A program made the position numbers and the translations under genes. Shown piece after piece: positions 1,750-26,560 of a DNA stretch of 64,000 nt. Under the pieces are notes generated by a model. It searched no databases. It saw only the letters and a list, made by a program, of their open reading frames with translations, and was not told the DNA's origin. Source of the DNA: a virus (Duplodnaviria; Heunggongvirae; Uroviricota; Caudoviricetes); the IMG/VR virus record IMGVR_UViG_3300045988_152699. One strand, written 5' to 3'. Numbering within the stretch: the stretch's first letter is position 1; the number at the start of each line of letters is the position of its first letter.

Positions 1750-2189
1750 TTGGCTGGGGTGTATGCGTTCTTGCGTTAGCCTTAGCCGATCGCTATTTGC
1801 TAAAACGCAAGGACATCACGCATTTAGAACTTGGTGATGTGGAAATTAAACCGGGTTTCATCCGGGTGCCGTTCAAATACCGGTCTAAATTCCCGTTTTT
1901 GCGCGGCGCAACGGTCAGATATTGGATCCGCGATGTTCAGAAGCCGACGACAGTGATTGAAGGCGAACAACGTTGTTTGACGTCGGCTGAACAGGGCGAA
2001 AACAGTGAATGGTTGTACATACCCACTGAATATATGGGTAAAGGAGAGCGACTGTGGCATTTCAACGTCATGGTTACGCATGGCGACTCGTTCATTAACC
2101 CGTTGTATCGGATTTTCCCTGTTACTCAGCAAATCCGCAGAAGTTACGTAATAAATCTCGCACAGGATGTGTCAGATGACGAAAAATAA
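1746..2189 (+). CDS. Putative antiholin / lysis regulator (LydB-like)
   Basis: ATG overlaps the stop of the previous ORF (translational coupling); GGGAGG SD; assigned by synteny only. Confidence 0.4.
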   Translation: MIGWGVCVLALALADRYLLKRKDITHLELGDVEIKPGFIRVPFKYRSKFPFLRGATVRYWIRDVQKPTTVIEGEQRCLTSAEQGENSEWLYIPTEYMGKGERLWHFNVMVTHGDSFINPLYRIFPVTQQIRRSYVINLAQDVSDDEK

Positions 2190-2778
2190 GTATGCAACGG
2201 TCGATTTTGACCAGGTTAATGAAAAGGGGCTGAAATCCCTTATCGCGGCGATCAATAAAACCGGTGTTACGGTAATTGAGGTTGACTCCAGCAACCGCGC
2301 AACAACGAAAGATGGCGTTAAAGTTAAAACCGCAAAGCTGGTTCTTAACGACGGACAAATTCTTGCCATACAGGTAAACGATACTGGCGATATATCGTCT
2401 GTGAGGCTGAATGGAAAAGCTATTCCTAACGCTCAATCGCCGGATATCAAGACGCTTGGTACCGTCATGGGGCAAGCGGCCCGCAAAAACTCCGCAAAAT
2501 TCCAGAAATCACTGATCGCCAAAGCGAAACGTGTTGCCAATCCGGTAGACAAGAAACCGGCAGTAAAATCCAACTTTCAGCGCCTGCAAGAGGCAAAACA
2601 GCGGAATGCTCAGGTGGTTGCCGCTTATAAATCAGCGCAGAACTCGGTGTCTTTCAATCAACAGCAGATCACTGATTTGCGGGCGAAGCTGGATAAGGAG
2701 ACAGGCCGACTCAATAACGAAAAGGCCCGAAATGGCGAACTCAAACGCCGTCTTAAGCAACTGAAAGCAGGAAATTAA
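2176..2778 (+). CDS. hdf: Hdf, homolog of a DarA fragment
   Basis: Shares a visible motif with DarA (…RKNSAKFQ… followed by a coiled-coil); lies directly upstream of darA; AGGA SD before the ATG at 2176. Confidence 0.55.
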   Translation: MTKNKYATVDFDQVNEKGLKSLIAAINKTGVTVIEVDSSNRATTKDGVKVKTAKLVLNDGQILAIQVNDTGDISSVRLNGKAIPNAQSPDIKTLGTVMGQAARKNSAKFQKSLIAKAKRVANPVDKKPAVKSNFQRLQEAKQRNAQVVAAYKSAQNSVSFNQQQITDLRAKLDKETGRLNNEKARNGELKRRLKQLKAGN

Positions 2779-2779
2779 C

Positions 2780-4699: not shown

Positions 4700-5061
4700 C
4701 ACTATCAGCTATTGAGTTAATGGATCTCAGCGATAAGTTGGATGCTCTGATGTCCAAAGCGGCTACCGCGAGTGGCATGGAGTTGCTGGATATCAGCGAT
4801 GAAATTGACCAGATCATGCAACAGATGGGGTACGGTGTGTCCGGCGGCAGTAGTGGCGAGGAAAAACAACCTTCGGTACATGATGGTGTGCCAAAACTGG
4901 TTGCTGATTTCCTGGCTGATAAATTCGTCGATCAGAGCACCGATGCATTTATCGGTACCTTGCAGGATTTGAGTCAATATGTTGGCACATACATCGACCT
5001 GGACCAGGTTAAACAGCACACGGCGGCATGGATAGCCGCCAACATTAAAGAGGCAGCATAA
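4696..5061 (+). CDS. ddrA: DdrA-like protein (darA operon)
   Basis: 121-aa ORF overlapping the darA stop (ATGA); assigned by synteny with P1. Confidence 0.5.
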   Translation: MTLSAIELMDLSDKLDALMSKAATASGMELLDISDEIDQIMQQMGYGVSGGSSGEEKQPSVHDGVPKLVADFLADKFVDQSTDAFIGTLQDLSQYVGTYIDLDQVKQHTAAWIAANIKEAA

Positions 5062-5073
5062 GGCGTAACAGGG

Positions 5074-8061: not shown

Positions 8062-8359
8062 AATCGCAGCGCCATTAGGTGGAGATGCCATTATCGAATT
8101 TGATGATAATGAAGAAGTTTCCGGGCGTTTAAGCATTATCTCCGGTGACATTACCGAGGACATGATCGCTGAAGCCATAGCTGGGGCAAATCCCAATAGC
8201 TATATGGGATTCGTTAACACCCTTGATGCTCCCGCAAGTGATGTTCTCCGAACGCTGCATCTTTACGCTGGCTGGTTTGTTGATTGGCCAGCAGTAGATG
8301 GTGGCGATGAGGACGACGACGATGATTTTGGTGATCATGTAGACCAGATCGTATATTGA
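8051..8359 (+). CDS. Small acidic protein, last gene of the darA operon
   Basis: AAGGA SD 8 nt upstream; overlaps the ddrB stop; strongly acidic C-terminus (DGGDEDDDDDFGD); followed by an intrinsic terminator. Confidence 0.45.
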   Translation: MQIKIAAPLGGDAIIEFDDNEEVSGRLSIISGDITEDMIAEAIAGANPNSYMGFVNTLDAPASDVLRTLHLYAGWFVDWPAVDGGDEDDDDDFGDHVDQIVY

Positions 8360-8363
8360 AGAA

Positions 8364-8389
8364 ATCCCGCCAATCGGCGGGATTTTTAC
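8364..8389. terminator. Bidirectional rho-independent terminator (AAATCCCGCC-AATC-GGCGGGATTT plus T-run)
   Basis: Perfect GC-rich hairpin followed by TTTT, between convergent genes. Confidence 0.6.
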
Positions 8390-8390
8390 C

Positions 8391-9485
8391 TCACGAGAAG
8401 CTTTTTTCTGATGTCAGCCAACAGTGCTCGTGCAAATCTCTTGGTGGTTTTTCGACAAATGCCTCTTCAGCCACATCCTGCCAGGGGATTTGTTTAGCCC
8501 ATTCAGTTATAGCGTTATGGTTTGCCGAGAATAACGGTATTGTATAGGCCTTCAGCCAGTCTAATGTGCTGGAGTTGTGTTTTTGAGCGTGATGTTTCGC
8601 ATGGTGTTTGGCGATCACGATCGTAGGCACTACCCATTTACTACCGTCAGTCATTGTGAAGTGCATATTACGGGGAACAGATGACTTTTCCATCAACTCC
8701 CGAATCCCGGGGAATTTCCCCAAGATCAATCGGCGATATTCATCGCTATTGCGCCCACCAAACTCTTTGGCTTTGAATTCAAGATATGCTTCAGAAACGA
8801 GAGGTGAATCCTCTGTGTTTAGAGTTATCGCCGTGAAAAAACCAGCAGGATTGTTTTTACTATGGGCCAACCGGTGATGCGAATCATAAAAGTACCCTTT
8901 CTCGCGTTCCGATGGTTTCGACAGCAACAGCAGGCGCGAGTCATAATTGGTTAAATTGCCAGTTATCACTGCATGAGCGCGATCGCTGATTTCCGCCGAG
9001 TTAATAACGATGAAAAGATCGTGCGGTCCAGTAAAACCAGCCAGAGACTCTTCGTTATTCAGACAATAGGTTATATAGACGCATCCCCATGTTTCACTGA
9101 TATGCACCAACCCTTTGTCAGGGTGTATTCTGAAATAATTGCCAAGAAAAGGGTGTTTTTGGGTAACTCGCTCCCAATAACGGAACATATAGTCAATTAT
9201 TGTTTTTCGACTATCGTTAATCGCAGGAGAAACAACCACTGTACGGGAACACGAATACAGTATTGTTTGCAGGATGCTAATCACTGCCACAATAGAGGTT
9301 TCCCCAATACCATGTGGTGTGGTGGCAGTGACTTTGGCTCCGGTGTTCTTTATCGCGTTAATAATTTTTGCTTGATGAGGTGTTAACTCAATATCAAGCA
9401 ACTCTTTTGCTGCCAGTTCCCAATTGTCTTTATACCGTTCTATCAGTGCTAACCAGGCAGATTCATTCTGTATACGATTAATCAC
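8391..9485 (-). CDS. Paralog of the terminase large-subunit (PacB) ATPase domain with degenerate Walker motifs
   Basis: Collinear with the N-terminal ~270 aa of PacB (28591..30075), e.g. [24 protein letters not shown] versus [23 protein letters not shown]; Walker A reads HGIGETS (PacB HGTGKS) and Walker B FIVINSAE (PacB YIIDEAS). Confidence 0.6.
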   Translation of the reverse strand: MINRIQNESAWLALIERYKDNWELAAKELLDIELTPHQAKIINAIKNTGAKVTATTPHGIGETSIVAVISILQTILYSCSRTVVVSPAINDSRKTIIDYMFRYWERVTQKHPFLGNYFRIHPDKGLVHISETWGCVYITYCLNNEESLAGFTGPHDLFIVINSAEISDRAHAVITGNLTNYDSRLLLLSKPSEREKGYFYDSHHRLAHSKNNPAGFFTAITLNTEDSPLVSEAYLEFKAKEFGGRNSDEYRRLILGKFPGIRELMEKSSVPRNMHFTMTDGSKWVVPTIVIAKHHAKHHAQKHNSSTLDWLKAYTIPLFSANHNAITEWAKQIPWQDVAEEAFVEKPPRDLHEHCWLTSEKSFS

Positions 9486-10386
9486 TTTCCACCTCTTCCG
9501 TGGTGTTTTCTTGCAGTTCTGTTAATGCAGCACGACATAGGTTCCGGGCATTGGCTATAGCCACACTTTTGACTTCATCCGTCATCGTGCAGGTAATGTA
9601 CTGATCGAGTTCTTCAGCGCGGATGATGCTTTTGCCAATCAGAAACTGTATTTGCCATAGCAGATCGGCATCCATAATCAGAATTTCTGCCGGGCCTTCA
9701 GGGCCAGCCGGGAAGGAAACATAAGACTGTTTGCCCAGGCCGACAACTCGACAACTTGCTTCAAGAATTGCGCGCTTGAGGTCTGACTTTATAACGGAAA
9801 CAGGTTGATTTTCACCAGTGATTACGCCGTTGACATGGAAAGGCATGTAGCTTGAAATACGCTCCACTTTCCACACGCCAGCAAGCGATCCTTCATGCAG
9901 CACAATGGGGGTAACCGCGAGTTTCATCTCACCATATAACTGCTGGCAGATAGCTGGATTGCTGAATACATCTAAAGGCTCACATTCAAACAGCGGCGCA
10001 ATCTGCATGAGGTCCATCATGGTCATCCCTGGGGTGCGAGCAGTAATGAATTTGCGCATACCAGTATCCATTGCGCTCCAGATTGCTACACCATGCTTTT
10101 TGCTCACTTCTTCAGTAAAGCCAAGGTGGCACATGATGGTTTTTTCGATAGCCAGATCGGAGATAGAAACCTTTTCGCCAGGTACACCATCATTATTGAT
10201 GGTCACTTCGACACTCTGGCCATTACGCAGGCGGTATTGAATTGCTTTAGTATTTTGTGCTGCCATAGTCTTTTCTCTGCTTAAAAACTGATGTATTGCG
10301 CCTTCAGGTGGGTCAGGAATGTTTTCCCACCAGCGAAAGCAATATCTCGGGGTGTTCTTTTCGTGAAAAGCGCGTTCCATTGCCAA
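9478..10386 (-). CDS. Hypothetical protein, possibly co-transcribed with the terminase-like paralog
   Basis: 302-aa ORF overlapping the downstream gene by 8 nt; the real start may be the internal ATG near 10266; no recognisable motif. Confidence 0.4.
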   Translation of the reverse strand: MAMERAFHEKNTPRYCFRWWENIPDPPEGAIHQFLSREKTMAAQNTKAIQYRLRNGQSVEVTINNDGVPGEKVSISDLAIEKTIMCHLGFTEEVSKKHGVAIWSAMDTGMRKFITARTPGMTMMDLMQIAPLFECEPLDVFSNPAICQQLYGEMKLAVTPIVLHEGSLAGVWKVERISSYMPFHVNGVITGENQPVSVIKSDLKRAILEASCRVVGLGKQSYVSFPAGPEGPAEILIMDADLLWQIQFLIGKSIIRAEELDQYITCTMTDEVKSVAIANARNLCRAALTELQENTTEEVESD

Positions 10387-14771: not shown

Positions 14772-17700
14772 ATGAACAAGCTATCTATGGGGGTGTTTCG
14801 CTGTTCAAGTGTCAGCGAAATATTGAAATACATTAGGGCAATAACATCTCACCGAGCGCCGATTAAATACGGCGTGGAAAAGGTGGAAGGCAAAAGCTAT
14901 GACCGACTGCGCCGGGAGGCGAATCAGAAGGCGATAGATTTGCTTAATTCGCTGGTGGACGGCGCGACACTGACAGATGAACAGCGCCAGATCCTGGCTG
15001 GGTACACCGGTGAAGGCGGCATTGGCGGGTCCGTCTCCGAATATTACACACCAAAGCCGATCGCTGAAGGTGTCTGGGAGATCATGAAGCTCTACGGCGC
15101 GGACGTAGGTAACACTCTGGAACCATCGGCGGGCACCGGCGTTTTTAATGAGACAAAACCGGTTGGTACGGTGATGACTGCGACTGAGATCAGCAGTGTT
15201 TCCGGTCGTATAAACCAGCTGTTACACCCGGAAGACAGCGTACAGATTTCCCCGTTCGAACAGCTGGCTGTAAGCACGCCTAACGATTCATTCGACCATG
15301 TTGTGGGTAACGTTCCGTTCGGTGGTCGTGATAACACACGCAACATCGATAAGCCTTACGCAGAAGAAACGGACATGGGTTCTTACTTCATGCTCCGCAT
15401 GCTGGACAAGATAAAGCCAGGCGGATTCATGTGCGTGATTGTGCCGCCGTCCATTGTTTCAGGTTCAAACATGAAGCGGTTACGCCTGCGCCTATCACGG
15501 AAAGCTGAATTTCTTGGTGCCCACCGCTTGCCTACCGGTACTTTTGACGCAAACGGGACCAGTACGGTCGTTGACGTGGTGCTGATGCGCAAACATCCGG
15601 CGGAGATGGCTGAGAAAATCCCCCTGGTGGATGAAGGCACTCTTGAATCGGCAAATGTGCTTTGGCCAACGTTTATTTCTGGCAAGTGGTTTGAAAAGGA
15701 CGGTCGCCGGTTTGTTCATGGCACCCAGGAGAAGGGATTCCAGGGGCGTATTGAGGTTCGTGCCGACGGGCAGATTGATAACCAGGCTCTTAAAGCGAAG
15801 CTGATTCATCGTTTCGAAAGTCGTATCGACTGGTCTTTGCTCAATATGGCTGAACCGTCACCGACCGCAGACGTTGTTGATGAAGGGGAAATGCGCCTGA
15901 TTAATGGCGTATGGCAAAAATATGCTGGTGGTCGCTGGATTGAATCTGATGCAGGGAAGGAGCTGAAGATTGATGTTGCCAGTTATGGCGCGGACAGCTG
16001 GGAGGCTCTTCAGCGTAACCTGACTACAACAGAAGGCCGTCTCGGTATGACATTTACCCAGATGGCAAATGTCCGCGATAAGTACACCACATCAATCAGC
16101 GACGATATGGTGCAGCTGGTGGACTGGATTAACAGCCAGCCTGAAAAATACCGTGAACGCTTGTATCGCGGGGCGATGATTGGCCGGATGTTAATTGAAT
16201 ATCAGGACATGAAGGCCGCCGGGCATAGTGCTGAACAAATCGAACAGCAGCGCCTTTCTCTGGTATCCCGTTTGCAGGCAGAGATTGACCGTTTTGGTAA
16301 CCCCGGTCGCGGTCCGATAGCGAAATTATCGGGGAGCGGTGCGCGCGCCTGGTTTGCTTTCCGTGGTGCAATTAAGCTGGATGGCACTATTTCTGACGAG
16401 CTGACAGGAAAACTGGTTACGCATGATTCCAGCGCCAGTTATGACTCCACCAGCTATCAGGACACCCTGCGTTATCTCTACAGTGATCTCACTCGCGATC
16501 CAATCCAGCTCGATGATTTCCGCCTTGCGTTTACCGGCGAACTGCCAGCCAGTGATGACGAGTTGCTTAATTTATTGGCCAGCACCCCTGGCATTGCGGT
16601 TTCACCGTATGGCGGGATTGTTCCGTTCGCCCGCGCCACCAGCGGCGACATTAACGAGATAGTGGCACCAAAACAGGAATTCCTTGCCACACTCCCCGAC
16701 GGTCCAGTAAAGAACAACGTCCTTAATCAGCTGGCAGCGATCGAAGAGAAGCGCATCAAGACGCCAGCAGAGAATATCCGCTTTAAGCTCAATAGCCGTT
16801 GGTTCGACCGTTCCGTCATTCTGGAATTTTTGCAGGAAAACGGCTATCCGGATCTTCGCTATGTGCAGTCAGTGCAGCTGGAAGGCGACGAAATGGTTTC
16901 TGACACCTATCACGGTGGTGATGGTCTGTTCGTCGGGCACCGATACGGTGTCGTCCAGCGCAAGGATAAAGAAACAGGCGAGATCCGCTACGAGTGGGAT
17001 CGTAAATCAGGTGAAAACGCGACCGGGTTCCCGGCACAGCTGGAAAAGTATCTCAATGGTGCGCGTATCGGTGGCAAAGATAGCGCGACGGCGAACGGCT
17101 ACCGCGAGCAGATGGCACTGCTTGAGGACCAGTTCAATAAGTGGATCAAGACGCACGATCGCTACGATGAACTGGTTGCCAAATACAACGATGTGTTCAA
17201 TAGCAATATCCCGTATGAACACTCTGGCGATCCGCTTGGGTTGAAGGGATTAAGCGGTAAGCGCCAGCCATTTGATTACCAGAATAGCGAAGTGCGCCGA
17301 CTGTCCGAAGATGGGCGCGGCATCCTGGGCTTCGGCACTGGGCTGGGTAAAACTACGACCGCGCTGGCGCTTGAGGCGTTCAACTATGAGAACGGTCGCT
17401 CCACCCGTACTGCGTATGTAGTGCCTAAATCAGTGCTGGAAAATTGGTATTACGAAGCTAAAGAATTCCTGAGTGAAGAGGCATTCAGTAACTATTTGTT
17501 CGTCGGTCTTGATGTGCTGATGGATGGCGATCAGATTCGCCAGGTGCCGGTGCTCGATGAGAACGGTAAACCTGTTCTTGGTACTGATGGCACTCCAGTT
17601 ATGCGTGATGCTCTTAAGCTGGCAGATGAAGCCACTATCACGGCGCGGATGAATGCGATCCCGCACTCAAATTACCGTGCAGTCGTGTTTACCAAAGAAC

Positions 17701-20700
17701 AATACGCCCGCATTCCGCTACGTGATGACACCGTAGATGAGCATGCACAAGACATGCTTTATGACTTCGTTGCTGCCGGACGTGTGGCCAGCGCAATGGA
17801 TTCCGATTCCCATCGCAAAGAGGCGGCGCGTCGCCGGGTATTGTCGGAGTATTCAGATACCGGTACCGAAAAAGCAGAGAAGTATCCGTACTTTGAGGAT
17901 ATGGGCTTCGACAGCGTGATCGCCGACGAAGGCCACAACTACCGCAATAGCTATAAAAATGGTCGCGAAGCGTCACAGCTGGCCTATCTGCCCACCAGCG
18001 CGGTGGCGCAATCGGCGCGAGATATGGCAATCAAAAACGCGTACCTGATGAAAAAGAATGGCGGGCGCGGACCGGTTCTCCTGACTGCAACGCCAGTCGT
18101 TAACACCCCGATCGATGCATACAACATGCTTTCTCATGTTCTGCCGAAAGAATACTGGCAGAAGATGGGGATCTACGGTCCTGATGACTTCGTTAAATTC
18201 TTCGGCAAGACCAGGCTGGAAACGGTACAGAAAATCAGCGGTGAAGTTGAAGAAAAAATGGCGCTGGTGGGCTTTGAAAACCTTGATGCGCTGCGCGGCA
18301 TATTCCATCGCTGGACAACGCTTAAAACGGCGGAAGACGTTAAGGATACCGTGGAGATCCCGGAACTGGACGAACACCAGCAGGATGCACCACTTACGGA
18401 AGAACAACTGGCGGCGTATGAAGAATTGCGTCAGCAGGCGGAAGCGGCAGCCAAAGCCAACAATGGCGTAACGACCTCGGTCAATGAAGACGGCGTGATT
18501 GAGCACGAGAAAGCCCGTCCGATCTTCTCAATAATCAGGGATATGGACCGCGTATGTACTGACATGGACCTGTACTATCGCCGGATCACCTATCGTTTCC
18601 TGCCGGAGTACGCCGATGCGGTGCAGCAGCTGGCGGACAGTTTGCCTAAACAAGCCACCAGCGAAGACGACGACAGTGATGATTCAATCACGCAGCAATC
18701 GCAATACTCCCTGATAGATAAGGGCGAGTTTATTCAGTTGCAGGTTCCGGAAGCGTTCGAGCAGGAAGTGAATAAGCGCCTGGCCAGGTTTGGCATTGAC
18801 GAACAGACCGTAACTCACCCCGTTACGCCCAAATACGCGAAGCTGATTGCCACGCTGAAGGAGTTTTTCCCGGAAGGTAAGCAAATCATCTTCACCGATG
18901 AAAAAACGCAACACCAGAAGCTCAAGCGCATTATCTGCAATGCTCTTAACCTTGAACCTTCAAAGGTGGGGATCCTGAATGCTCAGACGGTTGCCGAGGC
19001 AGGTAAAACCGGTAAGAAACTGAAAGCGGTTAAACCACCGAAAGAGCTACCGGATGAACCAACAGATGCACAGATAGCGAAATACAACGAGCAAATGGCT
19101 CTGTATGACGCCTATATCGCGCAGCAAAATGAAATGTCGTTGGGCGGTCTGGAAAAGATTGCAGCCGACTTCCAGGAGGGCCGGACTCCGATCATCATCT
19201 GCAACAAAAAGGCAGAGGTGGGTATCAACCTGCATCGAGGAACGACGGATATCCACCACCTGACGTTGCCGTGGACACCAGCCAGTATCGCACAACGTAA
19301 CGGTCGCGGTGCACGAGTTGGCTCCAACCGTGCAAGCGTTCGCGTTCACTACTACTGCGGCAAGGGGTCTTTCGATGAATACCGACTGAAGACGCTGAAG
19401 CGTAAAGCAGGCTGGATCTCCGATATCCTCCGTTCAGATAAGTCAGAAATGGAGAACGCCGACGCCAATGACATGATCGAAATGCAGATGTATACCGCGA
19501 AGGATGACGGCGAACGTCTGGCAATGATGCAGGTTCAAATGGATAAGGCGAAAGCTGCGAAACGCGCTCGCCAGAAAGAACAGGCTACTATCGACCTTCA
19601 GAACTACATCAAGGCGCAGCACGCAGCTGGTGAGGATGTGGAGGTACTTACCGCTGAATTGGAGCGAAGCAAAGCGGAACTTGAAAAGACCACCGCCGAC
19701 GTCGCCAAATTCAAACAGGCGGTAATGGCCAAAGCAGCGGATAACGCAGACTGGAAAGCCCGCTGGGGTAGCGTCCATCACACAGACCGTATGTTGTTAG
19801 CACAGTATCGCGCGTCGTTGAAAAGCGCCATTCAGCGCAAGGCTAATATCTCTCAGGCCATCTCCCGCTATGAGAAATTATTGAACCGTACTCAGAAGGC
19901 CGCGACGGATATCAAACGCCTGCGCCCGCTGGTGGAGGATGCAATAAATAAAGGCATTCTGGATGTTGATCCTGATCTGGTTAACCATGCGAATGAGTTC
20001 CTTGTTATCGGCGATCGCTCATGGCGTGTAGGCCAATACTATGATTGTGCCGGTGATATCGTTCGCATTAAGTCGCTGGACTTCGACAGCCAGCGCGCAG
20101 ACGTGGAGATCATCTTTACCTTCAAAGGCACCAAATCGGGTAACTGGGATGTGAAGACGCTGGATAAACAGGTTGATGTAACTCCCGATGAAGATGCTGT
20201 TATGCAGAAAATCAGTGGTGGCGTCTCCATCGCCGGGATTAACGACATCATTTCCTGTGACGATTTCTACCGTTTCCAGCAGCGCGGTATGATCAAAATC
20301 ACTGACTCATACGGCGTTCAGACTACAGAGTCAGGCTATAGCATTGATTTTGTTGGTTCCTATACGGCCCCACTGAAGCATGCGGTTTACCCGGATCGCC
20401 GTGACGGCGCGCTGAAGTCGTCAATTGCAAAATGGGTGCTTGGTATGATGTCGGAAGGGAATAACCGCCAGATCCGTTCGGCAGAAACATTCCTGGTTGA
20501 ATTGTTTGGCTCCAATTATGGCGATGTAATCGCGTCATACGGAGATACGCTATCCCCTGAAGCAATTCAGGAGAAAATAGCGGATGCGATCGCCAGAATG
20601 CCGGAAAAAACAAGCCAGGGGGCTACTCGTAACGGGGATTCTGAACTTGAAGTCACCAATGCTATTTTCGGTACCCATGAGTTCCGGGCGTCAGATTATG

Positions 20701-21539
20701 AGATCACCACAGCACAGTTTGGCACCATTGGCATTTACAGCAATAAAGCCGAGATCAAGCAGGCAATGGACGCAGCAAGCGCGCGCATCGCAGCAGAACG
20801 GGAAGCCAATCTGAATCATGCAGTCGCCGCGCTGACTCAATCGTGGGTAACAGCAATCAGGGAGGCCGCCACCACAGGGAAAATCACACCTGCAATAGCG
20901 GATGTCGTAAACGACGGCTCTAAATTTATGGATGCCTATCAAATGGATGCGGTGAAGTTGCCATCAGCCTATGGTCAACTCAGCTATCGCATGACCTACA
21001 ACCTGGTATCAATGTTTTCCGACCTTGCCATCCTTGGGCTGGTGGATCTTAACGAGGTTACGCCGGAATTGCTCAGCATGCGCAAGAATCATGTGGAGAT
21101 ATTGCAGAGAATTAACACGGTTCTTGCCGGGCGCACCGATGAAGAGAAACAGGCCGACGCTGATCGGATAAACCTGGCCCTTGGCAACATCACGGAGGAA
21201 GAGATTGCCGCCAGAAACGAGAAACAAGAAGAGTTATCATCAATACAGGGTGATGCCACCAGCATAGCTCAGTCTCTTGGTCTGAATTATCGCGTATCCA
21301 CCGCCGACCTGAAGATGATGTACGCACCAAAATTCGCCGCTGGCGAGGTATTTGGGCTTCAGGAAGCCTCAGGCATGAAAGGCGTTCTTTTCCGTGCGAA
21401 AGACGCAATCAAGGCGAAATTCGGCGCTCGCTGGCTGCCAGCGAAGGCGAAGAACAGCGATTTCCCGGGTAACTGGTGGATTATCGAGACAAAACACAAC
21501 GTGGCGGACGTTCTGGCCGTCATCCAACAATACGCATAA
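14772..21539 (+). CDS. darB: DarB, giant antirestriction protein with N6-adenine methyltransferase and helicase domains
   Basis: 2255 aa; N-terminal MTase motifs (EPSAGTGVF, VGNVPFG); central superfamily-2 helicase motifs (GTGLGKTT Walker A, ADEGHNYRN DEGH box); length and context match P1 DarB. Confidence 0.85.
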   Translation: MNKLSMGVFRCSSVSEILKYIRAITSHRAPIKYGVEKVEGKSYDRLRREANQKAIDLLNSLVDGATLTDEQRQILAGYTGEGGIGGSVSEYYTPKPIAEGVWEIMKLYGADVGNTLEPSAGTGVFNETKPVGTVMTATEISSVSGRINQLLHPEDSVQISPFEQLAVSTPNDSFDHVVGNVPFGGRDNTRNIDKPYAEETDMGSYFMLRMLDKIKPGGFMCVIVPPSIVSGSNMKRLRLRLSRKAEFLGAHRLPTGTFDANGTSTVVDVVLMRKHPAEMAEKIPLVDEGTLESANVLWPTFISGKWFEKDGRRFVHGTQEKGFQGRIEVRADGQIDNQALKAKLIHRFESRIDWSLLNMAEPSPTADVVDEGEMRLINGVWQKYAGGRWIESDAGKELKIDVASYGADSWEALQRNLTTTEGRLGMTFTQMANVRDKYTTSISDDMVQLVDWINSQPEKYRERLYRGAMIGRMLIEYQDMKAAGHSAEQIEQQRLSLVSRLQAEIDRFGNPGRGPIAKLSGSGARAWFAFRGAIKLDGTISDELTGKLVTHDSSASYDSTSYQDTLRYLYSDLTRDPIQLDDFRLAFTGELPASDDELLNLLASTPGIAVSPYGGIVPFARATSGDINEIVAPKQEFLATLPDGPVKNNVLNQLAAIEEKRIKTPAENIRFKLNSRWFDRSVILEFLQENGYPDLRYVQSVQLEGDEMVSDTYHGGDGLFVGHRYGVVQRKDKETGEIRYEWDRKSGENATGFPAQLEKYLNGARIGGKDSATANGYREQMALLEDQFNKWIKTHDRYDELVAKYNDVFNSNIPYEHSGDPLGLKGLSGKRQPFDYQNSEVRRLSEDGRGILGFGTGLGKTTTALALEAFNYENGRSTRTAYVVPKSVLENWYYEAKEFLSEEAFSNYLFVGLDVLMDGDQIRQVPVLDENGKPVLGTDGTPVMRDALKLADEATITARMNAIPHSNYRAVVFTKEQYARIPLRDDTVDEHAQDMLYDFVAAGRVASAMDSDSHRKEAARRRVLSEYSDTGTEKAEKYPYFEDMGFDSVIADEGHNYRNSYKNGREASQLAYLPTSAVAQSARDMAIKNAYLMKKNGGRGPVLLTATPVVNTPIDAYNMLSHVLPKEYWQKMGIYGPDDFVKFFGKTRLETVQKISGEVEEKMALVGFENLDALRGIFHRWTTLKTAEDVKDTVEIPELDEHQQDAPLTEEQLAAYEELRQQAEAAAKANNGVTTSVNEDGVIEHEKARPIFSIIRDMDRVCTDMDLYYRRITYRFLPEYADAVQQLADSLPKQATSEDDDSDDSITQQSQYSLIDKGEFIQLQVPEAFEQEVNKRLARFGIDEQTVTHPVTPKYAKLIATLKEFFPEGKQIIFTDEKTQHQKLKRIICNALNLEPSKVGILNAQTVAEAGKTGKKLKAVKPPKELPDEPTDAQIAKYNEQMALYDAYIAQQNEMSLGGLEKIAADFQEGRTPIIICNKKAEVGINLHRGTTDIHHLTLPWTPASIAQRNGRGARVGSNRASVRVHYYCGKGSFDEYRLKTLKRKAGWISDILRSDKSEMENADANDMIEMQMYTAKDDGERLAMMQVQMDKAKAAKRARQKEQATIDLQNYIKAQHAAGEDVEVLTAELERSKAELEKTTADVAKFKQAVMAKAADNADWKARWGSVHHTDRMLLAQYRASLKSAIQRKANISQAISRYEKLLNRTQKAATDIKRLRPLVEDAINKGILDVDPDLVNHANEFLVIGDRSWRVGQYYDCAGDIVRIKSLDFDSQRADVEIIFTFKGTKSGNWDVKTLDKQVDVTPDEDAVMQKISGGVSIAGINDIISCDDFYRFQQRGMIKITDSYGVQTTESGYSIDFVGSYTAPLKHAVYPDRRDGALKSSIAKWVLGMMSEGNNRQIRSAETFLVELFGSNYGDVIASYGDTLSPEAIQEKIADAIARMPEKTSQGATRNGDSELEVTNAIFGTHEFRASDYEITTAQFGTIGIYSNKAEIKQAMDAASARIAAEREANLNHAVAALTQSWVTAIREAATTGKITPAIADVVNDGSKFMDAYQMDAVKLPSAYGQLSYRMTYNLVSMFSDLAILGLVDLNEVTPELLSMRKNHVEILQRINTVLAGRTDEEKQADADRINLALGNITEEEIAARNEKQEELSSIQGDATSIAQSLGLNYRVSTADLKMMYAPKFAAGEVFGLQEASGMKGVLFRAKDAIKAKFGARWLPAKAKNSDFPGNWWIIETKHNVADVLAVIQQYA

Positions 21540-21572: not shown

Positions 21573-22013
21573 ATGGCCACACTATCTGATACAATAAAAC
21601 CGAATAAAACATATCTTGAGGCGGTACTCCGTACAGCGTTGTTAGGAAAGACAGAAGACGAATACGTTGATTTCTTCCTGTCAGGGCTACGCGGGCGATT
21701 ACTGAAAAATCCCCGCCTGTACCGCAGCTATGGTCCATACTGGCCGGAAATTAAAAAATTATTACTGGAGCGCGGTTATGGTAATTTCGGTCGTCTCGTT
21801 GACCGTGACGTTCGCAAAATTTACCGTTATGACCGCCCGGCGCTAACACTCATAGCCGCGACGCTCTACAGCCAGGAGCGTTTTGATAATGGTCAGATAT
21901 ACTCAGCCTGGCATTTACTGCCAGTGCCTGAAGAAGTTGACGACCAGGACTATGAGTTTGAGTCTTACGATTTGGAAGTTGAAGCCTTGGCACAGGCTGG
22001 AGAGAAAACTTGA
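21573..22013 (+). CDS. ulx: Ulx-like protein (downstream of darB)
   Basis: 146-aa ORF immediately after darB; assigned by synteny only. Confidence 0.45.
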   Translation: MATLSDTIKPNKTYLEAVLRTALLGKTEDEYVDFFLSGLRGRLLKNPRLYRSYGPYWPEIKKLLLERGYGNFGRLVDRDVRKIYRYDRPALTLIAATLYSQERFDNGQIYSAWHLLPVPEEVDDQDYEFESYDLEVEALAQAGEKT

Positions 22014-22258
22014 AAAAGCGATACTACACAGTAAAGCATGGGACGCTACGAGCATTACAAGAGTTTGCTGATAAGCATAACGTTGAGGTGCGCAGGGAAG
22101 GGGGAAGTAAAGCTCTGCGCATGTACCGTCCGGACGGGAAATGGCGTACGGTCGTCGATTTCAAAACTAACAGCGTTCCCCAGGGCGTCCGCGACCGGGC
22201 ATTCGAAGAATGGGAGCAGATCATCATAGATAACGCATTGCTCCTGAATGCTGATTAA
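22010..22258 (+). CDS. lxc: Lxc-like small protein (modulator of C1 repression in P1)
   Basis: 82-aa ORF overlapping the ulx stop; position as in P1; followed by a terminator. Confidence 0.45.
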   Translation: MKKRYYTVKHGTLRALQEFADKHNVEVRREGGSKALRMYRPDGKWRTVVDFKTNSVPQGVRDRAFEEWEQIIIDNALLLNAD

Positions 22259-22266
22259 ATCTTTGG

Positions 22267-22292
22267 CTATGCCTGGCTAAGCCAGGCATAGG
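22267..22292. terminator. Perfect palindrome CTATGCCTGGCT-TA-AGCCAGGCATAG between convergent genes
   Basis: 12-bp perfect inverted repeat between the lxc stop and the stop of the RelA/SpoT-domain gene. Confidence 0.5.
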
Positions 22293-22295
22293 AAT

Positions 22296-23417
22296 TTACA
22301 CAGTATCAATGTGTCTGCTAAGGAATCTCCCGAACTGATTTGTTGACCCAAAATAGTTAGGATAAGCCTTTTTAAGAGATTTAATGTTGTTAGTGGCAAG
22401 CAGCACCGCAATTAATACTTCAGGATCCGCATCATCCTTATTAAGTTCCTGGAGGGCTTGTTCCGATTCTTTTTTCCTAAAAGGTTTCACAGAAACAAGA
22501 AACTTTCCAGTATCCTTGCCATTTTTTGTTATGGCGTTTCTCATCCTCACCAAAAAGAATCCATTATGGTTTTTGGGCAGGCTTTTCTTTAGGTTTGCAT
22601 CTGATGTCAGCTTCATTGCAAATGTATATGTACTTAATTTTGAGCGAACAGATAAAGCCTCCTCCAATGTTTTAAGCTCTGTTTGATAATTTTTGATGGT
22701 TTCATCATCAAGAATACAGGCACCTTCATCATGAGCAACTAGGCATCCAGAAAGATAAAAAAATCTTCTCCACTCAGGGTGACCTTCATTAGAAGTTTTC
22801 AGCTTAATATTTTCAAGTGTATCTATTATCTCCAGACTTGTTGCCCAAGCATGTTGGAGTTCTGTTCTTAGTTGTACTTCGATTTTAGTTTTACTCCACG
22901 GATTGTTACCGTTTTCTTCATCAAAACAACTATATGCAAGGTGAATGCCACTATATCCGCTTGGCTTTGGAGTTAAATAGTCATATTCCTTTAAGATTTT
23001 ATGCTTGGAGCGACTTTTAACTAGTCGGTCTTTTAGTTTCTTTAGTTGTTCGATGTTTCTAACTATAGCTCTACATCCGCCAATATCCTGCATTCTAGTA
23101 AGGGCTATTGCATTATTTGTTGCGCCGCCGTCAAGACTTGGACGCTCCAGTTTATCAATTATTGTGCTAAGTCTTTTTAGGCGTCTTGCAACAATAATCT
23201 TATTCTCTTTATCAACTTTTTTTGCAGCCCTATCAAGATGATTTTTCATTAGCATCAATGGATATAAATGAAGCTCGCGGAAATTTTGAATCATTTTAAT
23301 TGCTTCTTCTCGCTCTGCGCCCTCACAACCATGTCTAATTTTTCTGGCTGCTTTTTCTATTTGAGATTTCGAATATTTAAGTTCGCATTTTTGGCTTTGA
23401 TATACTTCACTGCCCAT
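22296..23417 (-). CDS. Fused toxin-antitoxin with a RelA/SpoT (toxSAS) nucleotidyltransferase domain, CapRel-like antiphage protein
   Basis: RelA/SpoT synthetase motifs DIGGCRAIV, G-loop GYSGIHLAY and EVQLRTELQHAWAT; a ~170-aa C-terminal extension; single gene at the position of the P1 res/mod locus; likely start is the second or third ATG (the track start is TTG). Confidence 0.75.
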   Translation of the reverse strand: MGSEVYQSQKCELKYSKSQIEKAARKIRHGCEGAEREEAIKMIQNFRELHLYPLMLMKNHLDRAAKKVDKENKIIVARRLKRLSTIIDKLERPSLDGGATNNAIALTRMQDIGGCRAIVRNIEQLKKLKDRLVKSRSKHKILKEYDYLTPKPSGYSGIHLAYSCFDEENGNNPWSKTKIEVQLRTELQHAWATSLEIIDTLENIKLKTSNEGHPEWRRFFYLSGCLVAHDEGACILDDETIKNYQTELKTLEEALSVRSKLSTYTFAMKLTSDANLKKSLPKNHNGFFLVRMRNAITKNGKDTGKFLVSVKPFRKKESEQALQELNKDDADPEVLIAVLLATNNIKSLKKAYPNYFGSTNQFGRFLSRHIDTV

Positions 23418-23480
23418 TACTAACATCCAGTTCAAATGATTAATGTGTTGTTACATATAATAACAAATCAAGCTAGAAAT

Positions 23481-23507
23481 CAATGGGTATGAAAATGAAA
23501 CATACCC
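23481..23507 (-). terminator. Stem-loop ATGGGTATG-(9 nt loop)-CATACCCAT between the unknown ORF and the RelA/SpoT-domain gene
   Basis: 9-bp perfect stem; the downstream sequence is only moderately T-rich. Confidence 0.35.
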
Positions 23508-23529
23508 ATAATGTTACCTAACGTAACTA

Positions 23530-24171
23530 TTATAAATAGTTCTGTTTACCTGTTAATTCTCCTTGCGGCACTTGTTTTTGCGTTAGTGTTTGAGTTCCGC
23601 GAATTATGTTAATCAGGGGACTTAGTAATGATGGTTCCTGATGGGCCTCAACTTCTCCAGCCATTGCCCTGATGTAGTCGGCGCTGGCAACGTTGTTGTA
23701 TTCCGTCGCAAAGCAACATAGTAACGTCAGAACATGTTCTGTCGTTATTTCGCTCCAGTTGATGTTGAAAAATTCATCGCCTTTTTTATCGTGTTCGGAA
23801 TCGAAGATGCTTTGGTGAAGGATGTATTTGCCGGATTCCTTGCGCGGTAACTTGATCGCTTTCTGGCGTTCCAATTCCTTGTAAATCTGCATTGCTTCAA
23901 TCAGTACCGGTCTGCCGTTCATGAAGGGATCACGCAACCTTACACGCTGGCCAACTCGACCGGTAATAAAGCTGTTTTCCTCTTCCACCAGCACGATAAA
24001 ACCCTTTTCCTCTTTTTCTCGCAATTCGCGCAGCAGCTGGAGTTCCATATCGCGGCGGCGTTCAGGGTAGCTGGTCCGCTCAGCCATTATCAGCTCATTG
24101 TTGATCCATGCAGCAGTCATTGACGCCGGTTTGCCGACGCTCATTGAAACAACGCATATTTTCTTATCCAT
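23530..24171 (-). CDS. Hypothetical protein between ref and the RelA/SpoT-domain gene (possibly the P1 mat equivalent)
   Basis: 213 aa from the ATG at 24171 (AGGGG SD upstream; the track start at 24198 is GTG); no recognisable motif; occupies the position of P1 mat. Confidence 0.45.
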   Translation of the reverse strand: MDKKICVVSMSVGKPASMTAAWINNELIMAERTSYPERRRDMELQLLRELREKEEKGFIVLVEEENSFITGRVGQRVRLRDPFMNGRPVLIEAMQIYKELERQKAIKLPRKESGKYILHQSIFDSEHDKKGDEFFNINWSEITTEHVLTLLCCFATEYNNVASADYIRAMAGEVEAHQEPSLLSPLINIIRGTQTLTQKQVPQGELTGKQNYL

Positions 24172-24359
24172 AGCGCCCCTACAAAAAAGAAAAGCCACCA
24201 GCGGCGGCTTAGCAATACAACTGAAGGTAGCGCCCGGTACTCAGACTGTGCCGTCCATGGAATATTTGAAAAGGGATCCATCCGTACCGGGCGTGTGATG
24301 ATTCTGACTCAAGTCACTTGTCAGTTGTCAATCATTTAAGATTAAAAATAATATATTTA

Positions 24360-24920
24360 TTAGTGCATGATGTTTGCCATTTCATAGGCGTCAGCCAGCA
24401 ACTCCATCTCTGACTTGTTCAACAAGGTGAATTCTTTCTTGCCTCCTACCACGCCATCTGCATGAACAGGGACCAGCCAAGGGTATTTTTCTCTTACTTC
24501 AGCCGGTGCTGCATGCTGGTGGTGCCATCTGCAAAGGGGCAATTGCTTTTTGTGACAACCCGGCGCGGTACGACCGGAGATATGGTGCAGAGACACCTCT
24601 TCAGATATTACTCCATGCATGTAGCAGGCAATGCAGGGGAGAGTGCCAAGAGCATTGGCGATGGTCCGTTCCTCCGCCGTCGGTGTTCGCCCCTTCAAGC
24701 CACGAGATTTTATTTTTACCGCACTTTTCCGCGTTTTGCTGGCTGGTGGGCGCTCTTTCTGTTTAGCGATACGGCGGTCGATAGAATCCCGCATTTTCTG
24801 ATATTGCGATTCTCGCCAGGCGGGGTCAGCCAACTTTTCCCGTTGCCGAGCGATCGCTCGTTCTCTGGCTGCCTTCTGCCACTCGCGGCGCTGTTCAAGT
24901 TTTTGTTCGATTGTTTTCAT
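24360..24920 (-). CDS. ref: Ref, HNH-family endonuclease (recombination enhancement function)
   Basis: 186 aa with an HNH-like Cys/His cluster (CIACYMHG…HHISGRTAPGCHKK…CRWHH) and a basic N-terminus; position next to cre as in P1. Confidence 0.8.
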   Translation of the reverse strand: MKTIEQKLEQRREWQKAARERAIARQREKLADPAWRESQYQKMRDSIDRRIAKQKERPPASKTRKSAVKIKSRGLKGRTPTAEERTIANALGTLPCIACYMHGVISEEVSLHHISGRTAPGCHKKQLPLCRWHHQHAAPAEVREKYPWLVPVHADGVVGGKKEFTLLNKSEMELLADAYEMANIMH

Positions 24921-25528: not shown

Positions 25529-26560
25529 CTAATTGCCATCTTCCAGCAGGCGCACCATTGCCCCTGTTTCACTATCCAGGTTACGGATATAGTTCATGAC
25601 AATATTTACGTTGGTCCAGCCACCAGCTTGCATGATCTCCGGTATTGAAACTCCAGCGCGGGCCATATCTCGCGCGGCTCCGACACGGGCACTGTGTCCA
25701 GACCAGGCCAGGTATCTCTGACCAGAGTCATCCTTAGCGCCGTAAATCAATCGATGAGTTGCTTCAAAAATCCCTTCCAGGGCGCGAGTTGATAGCTGGC
25801 TGGTGGCAGATGGCGCGGCAACACCATTTTTTCTGACCCGGCAAAACAGGTAGTTATTCGGATCATCAGCTACACCAGAGACGGAAATCCATCGCTCGAC
25901 CAGTTTAGTTACCCCCAGGCTAAGTGCCTTCTCTACACCTGCGGTGCTAACCAGCGTTTTCGTTCTGCCAATATGGATTAACATTCTCCCACCGTCAGTA
26001 CGTGAGATATCTTTAACCCTGATCCTGGAAATTTCGGCTATACGTAACAGGGTGTTATAAGCAATCCCCAGAAATGCCAGATTACGTATATCCTGGCAGC
26101 GATCGCTATTTTCCATGAGTGAACGAACCTGGTCGAAATCAGTGCGTTCGAACGCCAGCGCCTGTTTTGCACGCTCACCGGCATCAACGTTTTCTTTTCG
26201 GATCCGTCGCATGACGAGTGAAACAGCATTGCTGTCACTTGGTCGTGGCAGGCCGGACCGACGATGAAGCATATTTAGCTGGCCCAAATGTTGCTGGATA
26301 GTTTTCACTGCCAGACCGCGCGCCTGAAGATATAGAAGATAATCGCGAACATCTTCAGGTTCTGCGGGAAACCACTTCCGGTTATTCAACTTGCACCATG
26401 CCGCCCACGACCGGCAAACGGACAGAAGCATTTTCCAGGTATGCTCAGAAAACGCCTGGCGATCCCTGAACATGTCCATCAGGTTCTTGCGAACCTCATC
26501 ACTCGTTGCATCGACCGGTAATGCAGGCAAATTTTGGTGTACGGTCAGTAAATTGGACAT
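25529..26560 (-). CDS. cre: Cre tyrosine recombinase
   Basis: 343 aa; N-terminus MSNLLTVHQNLPALPVDATSDEVRKNLMDMFRDRQAFSEHTWK and the rest match the well-known P1 Cre sequence from memory; cognate loxP lies 419 bp upstream. Confidence 0.97.
   Translation of the reverse strand: MSNLLTVHQNLPALPVDATSDEVRKNLMDMFRDRQAFSEHTWKMLLSVCRSWAAWCKLNNRKWFPAEPEDVRDYLLYLQARGLAVKTIQQHLGQLNMLHRRSGLPRPSDSNAVSLVMRRIRKENVDAGERAKQALAFERTDFDQVRSLMENSDRCQDIRNLAFLGIAYNTLLRIAEISRIRVKDISRTDGGRMLIHIGRTKTLVSTAGVEKALSLGVTKLVERWISVSGVADDPNNYLFCRVRKNGVAAPSATSQLSTRALEGIFEATHRLIYGAKDDSGQRYLAWSGHSARVGAARDMARAGVSIPEIMQAGGWTNVNIVMNYIRNLDSETGAMVRLLEDGN

What the first reader, a model, noticed from the sequence alone, without database searches (positions are those of the whole stretch)
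22259..24359. Accessory locus between lxc and ref where P1 carries res/mod: only two genes, no Type III R-M, no IS1
In P1 the interval between lxc/ulx and ref holds mat, the Type III EcoP1I res and mod genes and IS-associated genes. Here it is about 2.1 kb with just the toxSAS gene and one unknown ORF, bounded by hairpins. This fits the idea that the interval is a variable defence island in P1-like phage-plasmids.
Basis: partly seen in the sequence, partly recalled or inferred. Interest (0 to 1): 0.5.

Follow-up and report, generated by a model that had tools for sequence, protein, structure and literature searches.

The report
CapRelSJ46 in P1's known swap slot
This stretch of a P1-like phage-plasmid is a known swap slot between the lxc and mat genes; here it holds the well-studied anti-phage gene CapRelSJ46 instead of P1's restriction system, so it is real but ordinary.

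Summary
The window is a P1-like phage-plasmid. The interval 22259-24359 does hold two genes and no Type III R-M or IS.

- **The "unknown ORF" is mat.** ORF 23530-24171(-) is a backbone gene that P1 carries at the same place, 95-98% nucleotide identity.
- **The true cargo is 1,271 bp** (22259-23529, GC 0.37 against 0.47-0.51 in the flanks). It runs exactly from the lxc stop codon to the mat stop codon.
- **Its one gene is CapRelSJ46.** Gene 22296-23417(-) encodes a protein 373/373 identical to PDB 7ZTB. The whole interval is 100% identical to Salmonella phage SJ46. CapRelSJ46 is the fused toxSAS toxin-antitoxin that senses a phage capsid protein and pyrophosphorylates tRNA (Zhang 2022).
- **The IS1 point is mistaken.** P1's IS1 lies about 12.6 kb away, in RD-2.
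- **The slot is variable.** In 73 IMG/VR loci and a dozen plasmids, the same lxc|mat slot is empty (39 bp) or holds one of about 13 cargos. These are Type III R-M, two CapRel alleles, two SIR2 types, PIN/DUF4935, DUF2971, JukA, GNAT, YaaC, EAL and a lipoprotein. 49 of 65 occupied slots match defence or candidate-defence families.

It is already published as RD-1 (Venturini 2019; mBio 2024), and CapRel is already reported in P1-like elements (2025 preprint).

Verdict: already known, low interest. One side lead: the published "relAP1" is an unrecognised CapRel allele.

The parts
14772..21539 (+). darB (anti-restriction methylase/helicase), conserved left backbone
   Evidence: 2255-aa ORF. About 98% nucleotide identity to P1 darB-lxc (P1 9746-22000 matches window 22263-10003).
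21573..22013 (+). ulx (Ulx-like anti-restriction), backbone
   Evidence: 146 aa. phrog_1629 'Ulx-like anti-restriction', E 4.5e-66. Syntenic with P1 ulx.
22010..22258 (+). lxc (modulator of C1 repressor). Its stop codon is the left edge of the variable slot
   Evidence: 82 aa. Homology to P1 and 10 plasmids ends at 22254-22264, or 22280 in one of them. Lxc is 100% identical by tblastn in all 80 IMG/VR loci.
22259..23529 (.). RD-1 cargo: the only segment that replaces P1 mod+res. 1,271 bp, GC 0.366
   Evidence: Boundaries. 100% identical to SJ46. At least 99.8% identical in 22 PLSDB plasmids (21 with at least 80% of the cargo) and in 14 of 5,426 complete E. coli genomes, always on plasmids.
22267..22291 (.). 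Perfect hairpin between the convergent lxc and capRel genes. Terminator-like, with no clear U-tract
   Evidence: 12-nt arms, 100% complementary. -20.2 kcal/mol, z -4.4, 0 of 200 shuffles as good. Every cargo type has its own hairpin at this position, and the empty site is essentially just such a hairpin.
22296..23417 (-). capRelSJ46: fused toxSAS toxin-antitoxin anti-phage gene (373 aa)
   Evidence: 373/373 identical to PDB 7ZTB_A. Pfam RelA_SpoT at residues 79-193. PADLOC PDC-S33, E 7e-87. Function from Zhang et al. 2022, PMC9712102.
23418..23529 (-). capRel 5' region (111 bp). Carries the native promoter activity
   Evidence: The native part of Zhang et al.'s gBlock TZ-1 ('with native promoter') is exactly this stretch, cloned into a promoter-less pBR322 backbone (compared).
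23483..23509 (-). Hairpin just downstream of the mat stop, within the capRel leader
   Evidence: 9-bp stem, 9-nt loop. The 71-nt context folds at -19 kcal/mol, z -4.9.
23529..23556 (-). Promoter-like TTAACA-N16-TATAAT straddling the mat stop codon and reading into the cargo (prediction only)
   Evidence: 11 of 12 consensus matches. Not needed for expression in the Zhang construct. The -35 comes from conserved Mat codons (LTG). The -10 is good in the SJ46-type, SIR2 and YaaC alleles and poor in the others (my reading of the junction sequences).
   Evidence: 95-98% nucleotide identity to mat of P1, P7, RCS47 and others. phrog_1837, E 4e-113. A 1-nt deletion in a G-run relative to P1 removes the 37-codon N-terminal extension annotated in P1.
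23530..23680 (-). Hypervariable 3' end of mat (last ~50 codons), linked to cargo type
   Evidence: 55-86% nucleotide identity in the first 150-nt bin, against 91-100% in the next four bins that cover the rest of mat. Mat residues 1-160 are almost invariant and the tail is variable, ending in a conserved VPxGxLTGKxN motif.
24192..24210 (-). Terminator-like hairpin plus T-run between Pmat/LPmat and the mat ATG
   Evidence: Identical in P1 and two plasmids.
24301..24369 (-). mat regulatory region: Pmat/LPmat (24301-24331) and C1 operator Omat (24352-24369, overlapping the ref stop)
   Evidence: Coordinates transferred from the P1 annotation through a gap-free alignment. Omat is identical to P1, and the promoter stretch has one substitution.
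24360..24920 (-). ref (RecA-dependent nuclease), backbone
   Evidence: Pfam RecA_dep_nuc, E 7.6e-50. Syntenic with P1 ref.

Best explanation
The window comes from a P1-like phage-plasmid. The finding sits on its 'region of difference 1' (RD-1), a single slot between the stop codons of the convergent backbone genes lxc and mat.

**Content of the slot.** In P1 the slot holds the Type III R-M genes mod and res. Here it holds a self-contained 1.27-kb module: a hairpin, capRelSJ46, and a 111-bp promoter and leader. mat, its C1 operator and late promoter, and ref are ordinary P1 backbone.

**How CapRelSJ46 works** (shown by others on the identical protein). It is a one-polypeptide toxin-antitoxin. 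The C-terminal pseudo-zinc-finger domain holds the N-terminal toxSAS domain inactive. The domain binds newly made major capsid protein of certain invading phages. This releases the enzyme, which pyrophosphorylates tRNA 3' ends and stops translation, so the infection aborts. The lysogen population and the resident plasmid prophage are thereby protected.

**How the cargo moves** (inferred here). Cargo is exchanged between co-resident P1-like elements by homologous recombination in the highly conserved flanks, darB-ulx-lxc on one side and mat-ref-cre on the other. It is not moved by a transposase or a site-specific recombinase.
For: **Identity**
- 373/373 aa identical to 7ZTB_A.
- The interval is 100% identical to SJ46 56352-58452.
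- Mechanism and native-promoter fragment come from PMC9712102.

**Slot boundaries**
- P1 1-3468 aligns to window 26995-23530, and P1 9746-22000 aligns to window 22263-10003. P1's 6.3 kb of mod::IS5 and res lies between them.
- Ten plasmids give the same two breakpoints.
- An empty site of 39 bp exists in CP088832.1.

**Variable content.** In IMG/VR, 73 of 80 loci hold lxc and mat together:

| Cargo | Loci |
|---|---|
| SIR2 | 11, plus 2 divergent |
| DUF2971 | 10 |
| Empty | 8 |
| GNAT | 7 |
| Type III R-M | 7 |
| PIN/DUF4935 | 6 |
| CapRelSJ46 | 6 |
| CapRel allele 2 | 3 |
| YaaC + NDT-like | 4 |
| EAL | 4 |
| JukA-containing 3.56-kb block | 4 |
| Lipoprotein | 1 |

- PADLOC matches cover CapRel, SIR2, DUF4935, DUF2971 and JukA.

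**Recombination**
- No terminal direct or inverted repeats and no recombinase gene flank the cargo.
- The cargo is at least 99.8% identical in E. coli, Salmonella and Klebsiella plasmids. The rest of the window, 39-64 kb, is at best about 98% identical to plasmids outside the CapRelSJ46-carrier list, one of which (NZ_MW646302.1) has a large cargo at this slot.
- Divergence is confined to the last ~150 nt of mat and tracks cargo type.

**Literature**
- RD-1 is described as a low-GC hot-spot where res/mod are replaced (PMC6906374).
- A relA-like gene is always flanked by mat and lxc (PMC10865808).
- CapRel and Type III R-M are listed among the defences of P1-like phage-plasmids (10.1101/2025.09.12.675607).
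Against: - Nothing contradicts the identification.
- The exchange mechanism is inferred from sequence patterns only.
- Several PADLOC matches are 'PDC' candidate families, not proven systems. Four cargo classes have no defence match (GNAT, YaaC/NDT-like, EAL, lipoprotein), so 'defence' may not describe every cargo.
- The promoter predicted across the mat stop codon is not required in the published construct.
- Only 64 kb of the element is visible, so a res/mod elsewhere in the unseen part cannot be excluded.
Confidence: 0.9

Rival explanations
1. One reading: a two-gene accessory cassette (toxSAS plus an unknown partner, for example an antitoxin or sensor) that fills the whole lxc-ref interval and is bounded by hairpins.
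For: There are two ORFs on the same strand, 112 bp apart. GC is still somewhat lower over the 3' part of the second ORF.
Against: - The second ORF is mat. It is present next to ref in P1, P7, RCS47, the empty-site plasmids and every other cargo type.
- Its first 160 residues are almost invariant across cargo types.
- CapRelSJ46 is a fused toxin-antitoxin that works alone from a 111-bp upstream fragment.
Confidence: 0.03
2. The cargo is mobilised by a dedicated mechanism such as transposition, an integron-like cassette system, or site-specific recombination at the hairpins, rather than by homologous recombination in the flanks.
For: - The boundaries are very sharp, at two stop codons, in all cargo types.
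- Each cargo starts with a hairpin, and four types share a GCCCGG...CCGGGC stem.
- IS and Tn elements do land in the region: IS5 in P1 mod, ISKpn26 in CapRel allele 2, and Tn3 beside SIR2.
Against: - There are no terminal repeats, target duplications or recombinase genes at the cargo ends.
- The hairpins differ in sequence between cargo types.
- Sharp edges are expected when non-homologous DNA sits between two conserved genes.
- Elevated, cargo-linked divergence in the mat 3' end is typical of recombination breakpoints in flanking genes.
Confidence: 0.08
3. The gene serves the plasmid or host physiology rather than phage defence. It would act as a small (p)ppGpp synthetase that raises basal alarmone levels or as an addiction module, as proposed for 'relAP1'.
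For: The mBio 2024 paper interprets the allele-2 homologue as a ppGpp synthetase without a regulatory domain and shows a fitness interaction with blaTEM-116*. P1's own res/mod at this slot also contributes to plasmid maintenance (PMC6906374).
Against: - The identical protein was shown to pyrophosphorylate tRNA, to be auto-inhibited by its C-terminal domain, and to protect against several phages (PMC9712102).
- A fused toxin-antitoxin has no separately unstable antitoxin, so classical post-segregational killing is unlikely (inference).
- relAP1 alone had no fitness effect.
Confidence: 0.07

Closest known systems
CapRelSJ46 of Salmonella phage SJ46 (Zhang et al. 2022, Nature; PDB 7ZTB)
   Same: Identical protein (373/373). 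Identical DNA over the whole 2.1-kb interval, including the hairpins and the upstream region. Same position between lxc and mat.
   Different: Nothing in the cargo differs. The backbone differs: SJ46 has Tn1721 immediately beyond mat where this window has ref-c8-cre, and the rest of the window is mosaic relative to known plasmids.
RD-1 of P1-like plasmids (Venturini et al. 2019, Sci Rep), and the mat/lxc-flanked 'relAP1' region (mBio 2024)
   Same: Same slot, same flanking genes, low GC, res/mod missing and replaced by other ORFs.
   Different: Those papers did not define the breakpoints to the stop codons. They did not report the empty site or the mat 3' hypervariability, and they did not recognise the relA-like gene as a CapRel. 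relAP1 is the other allele, 74% aa identity.
Phage P1 EcoP1I Type III R-M locus (mod, res)
   Same: Occupies exactly the same lxc|mat slot and has low GC, 0.39. Also a defence function.
   Different: Two genes, 5.1 kb (6.3 kb with IS5), transcribed in the lxc direction. No sequence homology to the cargo here. A DNA-targeting mechanism rather than abortive infection.
[quoted passage not shown] 2022)
   Same: A fixed position between conserved phage genes that carries many alternative, mostly small anti-phage systems, with occasional empty sites.
   Different: A different phage family and different flanking genes. The P1 slot lies between two convergent genes and usually holds one or two genes. 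I recall the comparison from that paper's abstract and did not test it.

Membership tests
CapRel fused toxSAS toxin-antitoxin (CapRelSJ46 type) | N-terminal RelA/SpoT-type synthetase (toxSYNTH) domain | tested here: met
   Pfam PF04607, E 3e-13, residues 79-193. SAS structures are the next PDB hits.
CapRel fused toxSAS toxin-antitoxin (CapRelSJ46 type) | Fused C-terminal antitoxin/sensor (pseudo-ZFD) in the same polypeptide, with no separate antitoxin gene | tested here: met
   Full-length identity to 7ZTB_A, 373/373. There is no further credible ORF between lxc and mat. The domain role is from PMC9712102.
CapRel fused toxSAS toxin-antitoxin (CapRelSJ46 type) | Catalytic Tyr155 (the Y155A mutation abolishes activity) | tested here: met
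   The sequence reads ...KPSGY155SGIHL... (alignment). The mutant is described in PMC9712102.
CapRel fused toxSAS toxin-antitoxin (CapRelSJ46 type) | tRNA pyrophosphorylation triggered by binding a phage major capsid protein; protection against phages | not testable with these tools
   Taken from experiments on the identical protein (PMC9712102).
P1 RD-1 variable slot / phage defence hotspot | Same conserved flanking genes in all relatives (lxc on one side, mat on the other) | tested here: met
   Seen in 13 annotated records. 73 of 80 IMG/VR loci hold both genes within 30-5,093 bp of each other.
P1 RD-1 variable slot / phage defence hotspot | Many non-homologous alternative cargos and an empty allele at the identical position | tested here: met
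   About 13 cargo classes, plus 8 of 73 empty sites of 29-39 bp.
P1 RD-1 variable slot / phage defence hotspot | Cargo enriched in anti-phage systems | tested here: inconclusive
   49 of 65 occupied IMG/VR slots carry a gene matching a PADLOC family or a Type III R-M. Several of these are candidate 'PDC' families, four classes have no match, and no background rate was computed.
Type III restriction-modification (EcoP1I) | Mod methyltransferase and Res helicase-nuclease genes | tested here: not met
   No tblastn or blastn hit of P1 Res, Mod or the P1 cargo DNA anywhere in the 64-kb window.
IS-mediated insertion (IS1/IS5) | IS element or its terminal repeats at the locus | tested here: not met
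   No IS1 in the window. No blastn hit of the P1 cargo, which includes IS5. No terminal repeats. P1's IS1 is in RD-2, not here.

The most novel reading that the evidence does not exclude
The lxc|mat slot is a dedicated one-cargo immunity slot of the whole P1 family. Under this reading its unassigned cargos are new anti-phage systems, by guilt by association. These are the GNAT, the YaaC plus nucleoside-deoxyribosyltransferase-like pair, the EAL plus regulator, and the small lipoprotein.

The second CapRel allele at this slot is the published 'relAP1'. It would then be partly triggered by a non-phage protein, the TEM-116* beta-lactamase, which would explain that resistance gene's host-specific cost.
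Probability: 0.3. Interest if true: 0.45.

Novelty: already known. Interest (0 to 1): 0.18.

Why it matters
For the scan, this finding can be closed. The gene is a textbook anti-phage system in its native genomic place, and the locus is a published variable region.

The modest value added here is fourfold:
- a base-exact definition of the slot, stop codon to stop codon;
- the empty-site allele;
- a rough census of what P1 relatives carry there;
- the observation that only the last ~50 codons of mat vary with the cargo.

The census points to a few small, uncharacterised cargos that could be tested cheaply for phage defence. One cross-link seems to be missing from the literature I could search: 'relAP1', reported to make a beta-lactamase costly, is a CapRel. 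That suggests a concrete mechanism for the cost.

Tried and rejected
- **Anchoring the right junction with a fixed 30-mer from the mat 3' end.** This failed because that end is hypervariable. I switched to annotation coordinates and blastn.
- **Looking for terminal repeats or IS ends around the cargo.** Only chance-level short imperfect matches turned up.
- **Rfam scan of 21900-24500 at E <= 1.** No match.
- **The predicted sigma-70 promoter across the mat stop codon as the capRel promoter.** Downgraded, because the published native-promoter fragment starts just after the stop codon and still works.
- **Identifying the source plasmid, to ask whether res/mod lie in the unseen part.** No PLSDB record matches 39-64 kb at >=99% over most of its length (best about 98%), so this stays open.
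- **Checking whether CapRel allele 2 is the published CapRelEcHT.** It is not.
- **Searching for a paper that calls this P1 locus a defence hotspot.** None was found in the searchable library. The parts of the idea are spread over several papers.
Full report
**What is at the coordinates**

The region around the finding is unmistakably P1-like. The gene order is darB (14772-21539, +), ulx (21573-22013, +), lxc (22010-22258, +), a 373-aa RelA/SpoT-domain gene (22296-23417, -), an ORF at 23530-24171/24198 (-), ref (24360-24920, -), c8, cre (25529-26560, -) and cra.

P1 (NC_005856) positions 1-3468 align to window 26995-23530 at 95.8% identity. P1 9746-22000 aligns to window 22263-10003 at 98.0%. 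GC falls from about 0.50 to 0.33-0.40 over about 22200-23800.

**The 'unknown ORF' is mat**

Megablast of 22259-24359 against phage genomes gives 95-98% identity from about 23575 to 24359 to the gene annotated mat in P1, P7, RCS47, JL22 and others. More sensitive blastn extends the homology to the mat stop codon at 23530.

The upstream regulatory stretch is essentially identical to P1 in a gap-free alignment (with P1 annotation). It includes the C1 operator Omat, which overlaps the ref stop, and Pmat/LPmat. mat is therefore backbone, not cargo.

**True boundaries**

I compared the window with P1 and ten P1-like plasmids that carry different content here. Homology always ends within a few bases of the lxc stop codon (22254-22264, once 22280). 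It resumes at or very near the mat stop codon (23518-23545). In two plasmids, whose mat 3' ends are very divergent, it resumes 120-130 nt further in.

The replaced segment is 22259-23529: 1,271 bp, GC 0.366, against 0.47-0.51 in the flanks. One plasmid, CP088832.1, has an empty site. There, 39 bp that form essentially one GC-rich hairpin separate the lxc and mat stop codons.

**The cargo gene**

The 373-aa product is identical over its full length to PDB 7ZTB chain A. The whole 2.1-kb interval is 100% identical to Salmonella phage SJ46, NC_031129 56352-58452. This is CapRelSJ46.

Zhang et al. (PMC9712102) showed that it is a fused toxin-antitoxin:
- The C-terminal domain auto-inhibits the N-terminal toxSAS domain.
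- The C-terminal domain binds newly made major capsid protein of SECphi27-like phages.
- The released enzyme pyrophosphorylates tRNAs and blocks translation.

The catalytic Tyr155 is present. The native part of their 'native promoter' gBlock is exactly window 23529-23418, the mat-capRel intergenic DNA. The cargo is therefore a self-sufficient expression unit.

A stronger-looking promoter, TTAACA-N16-TATAAT (11/12), straddles the mat stop codon. It lies outside that construct, so it remains a prediction.

Two significant hairpins bound the cargo:
- 22267-22291: -20.2 kcal/mol, z -4.4.
- 23483-23509: z -4.9.

No Rfam family matches. No terminal direct or inverted repeats flank the cargo.

**What P1 really has here**

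In NC_005856 the slot between mat (2716-3468) and lxc (9750-9998) holds res (3544-6456) and mod. In this strain mod is interrupted by IS5 (7652-8846).

IS1 lies at 22626-23393, between isaA and isaB, beyond darB, prt, pro, lyz and ssb. So 'no IS1' is not a difference at this locus. The window has no IS1 at all, and that other locus (RD-2) is also replaced, at window 8358-9476.

No Res or Mod homologue and no P1-cargo DNA occurs anywhere in the 64-kb window. The rest of the element is not visible. No PLSDB record matches the other half of the window closely enough to stand in for it.

**What relatives carry**

712 PLSDB plasmids match the 6.1-kb region around the slot. 43 of them cover it fully, meaning they carry a CapRel. 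The exact cargo, at >=99.8% identity, is in 22 plasmids: 15 Escherichia, 4 Salmonella and 3 Klebsiella. It is also in 14 of 5,426 complete E. coli genomes, always on plasmids.

Annotated representatives show these cargos:
- intact Type III mod+res;
- a second CapRel allele (375 aa, 74% identical), once disrupted by ISKpn26;
- SIR2-domain proteins, once with Tn3/blaTEM-1 alongside;
- a GNAT;
- YaaC plus a weak nucleoside-deoxyribosyltransferase-like protein;
- a PIN/DUF4935 protein;
- a DUF2971 protein;
- an EAL protein with a regulator-like ORF.

For a less hand-picked sample I fetched 80 IMG/VR loci through Lxc. 73 contain lxc and mat:

| Cargo class | Loci (n = 73) |
|---|---|
| SIR2 | 11, plus 2 divergent |
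| DUF2971 | 10 |
| Empty site | 8 |
| GNAT | 7 |
| Type III R-M | 7 |
| PIN/DUF4935 | 6 |
| CapRelSJ46 | 6 |
| CapRel allele 2 | 3 |
| YaaC | 4 |
| EAL | 4 |
| 3.56-kb block (JukA-like, HTH, KilAC antirepressor, lipoprotein) | 4 |
| 581-bp cargo with a small lipoprotein | 1 |

The last two classes were annotated.

PADLOC gives these family matches:
- CapRel: PDC-S33.
- SIR2: PDC-S25/ThsA-like.
- DUF4935: PDC-S34/PD-T7-3.
- DUF2971: PDC-S31.
- JukA.

Together with Type III R-M, 49 of 65 occupied slots carry a known or candidate defence gene. This supports the 'variable defence island' reading. The caveat is that several of these families are only candidates, and I computed no background rate.

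**How the cargo is exchanged (inferred)**

- Identity to the window is 91-100% throughout the flanks, except in the first ~150 nt on the mat side, where it is 55-86%.
- At protein level, Mat residues 1-160 are almost invariant. The last ~50 vary with cargo type but keep a terminal VPxGxLTGKxN motif.
- Mat identity to the window's Mat tracks cargo class, from 100% for CapRelSJ46 carriers down to 85% for EAL carriers. Lxc is 100% identical by tblastn in all 80 loci.
- No repeats or recombinase genes are present.
- The near-clonal cargo sits on mosaic backbones.

Together these fit exchange by homologous recombination in the conserved flanks, with the mat 3' end hitch-hiking with the cargo. A dedicated mobilisation mechanism is not excluded but has no support.

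**Comparison with the literature**

- Venturini et al. 2019 (PMC6906374) named this hot-spot RD-1. They noted that res/mod are missing and replaced in P1-like plasmids, at low-GC boundaries.
- An mBio 2024 paper (PMC10865808) showed a 'relAP1' gene in RD-1 that is always flanked by mat and lxc.
- A 2025 preprint lists Type III R-M, dGTPase, PrrC and CapRel as the main defence systems of P1-like phage-plasmids.
- The iLund4u preprint states that CapRel sits in variable regions of temperate phages.

I found no paper in the searchable library that puts these together as a 'P1 defence hotspot'. Every element of the finding is nevertheless published.

**Verdict**

- **Observation:** partly confirmed. 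The interval and gene count are right. The gene identity, the boundaries and the IS1 point are wrong.
- **Interpretation:** partly supported. The variable defence slot is real; the two-gene cassette is not.
- **Novelty:** already known.
- **Interest:** low.

Noticed in passing
L003:1796-2923 (-), L020 cargo; not in the window: The 'relAP1' gene of the P1-like phage of E. coli M114 was reported to make blaTEM-116* costly and was described as a ppGpp synthetase without a regulatory domain. It is the second CapRel allele at this slot. The paper's MAGE oligo translates to FDQKEDQYPWRKTKIEIQLRTQLQHAWAT and matches an allele-2 cargo exactly. No paper in the library mentions both relAP1 and CapRel. 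The cost might reflect partial triggering of the toxSAS by a non-phage protein.
   Followed up: partly
window 23530-23680 (-): The last ~50 codons of mat are hypervariable (55-86% nucleotide identity between cargo types) and co-vary with the cargo. Residues 1-160 are almost invariant, and the terminal VPxGxLTGKxN motif is kept. This could be hitch-hiking at a recombination edge or a functional link. I did not resolve which.
   Followed up: partly
window 24171-24281 (-): A 1-nt deletion in a G-run relative to P1 puts the 37-codon N-terminal extension annotated for P1 Mat (250 aa) out of frame. Only the 213-aa (ATG 24171) or 222-aa (GTG 24198) form is possible here and in SJ46. A terminator-like hairpin (24192-24210) sits between LPmat and that ATG.
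   Followed up: partly
window 8358-9476: The second P1 variable region (RD-2, where P1 has IS1 and isaB) is also replaced here. It holds a 364-aa ORF (8391-9485, -) of phrog_5902, with weak similarity to terminase large subunits and an N-terminus resembling PacB.
   Followed up: no
L012:3826-4575; L002:8162-11506 (SJ46): The mat|ref intergenic region is a second insertion point in relatives. One plasmid has a DUF4145 gene there, and SJ46 has Tn1721. P7 also has about 5 kb between ref and mat.
   Followed up: no
L007:1818-3367; L005:1842-2450; L010:1760-3496; L039 cargo: Several cargos at the same slot have no match in PADLOC: YaaC plus a weak nucleoside 2-deoxyribosyltransferase-like protein, a GNAT acetyltransferase, an EAL-domain protein with a 170-aa upstream ORF, and a 132-aa lipoprotein. 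Because of where they sit, they are candidates for untested defence or exclusion functions.
   Followed up: partly
window 39001-64000: No PLSDB plasmid matches this half of the window above about 98% over most of its length, and none of the eight best matches listed appears among the CapRelSJ46 carriers. The element is therefore a mosaic not represented as such in PLSDB.
   Followed up: no
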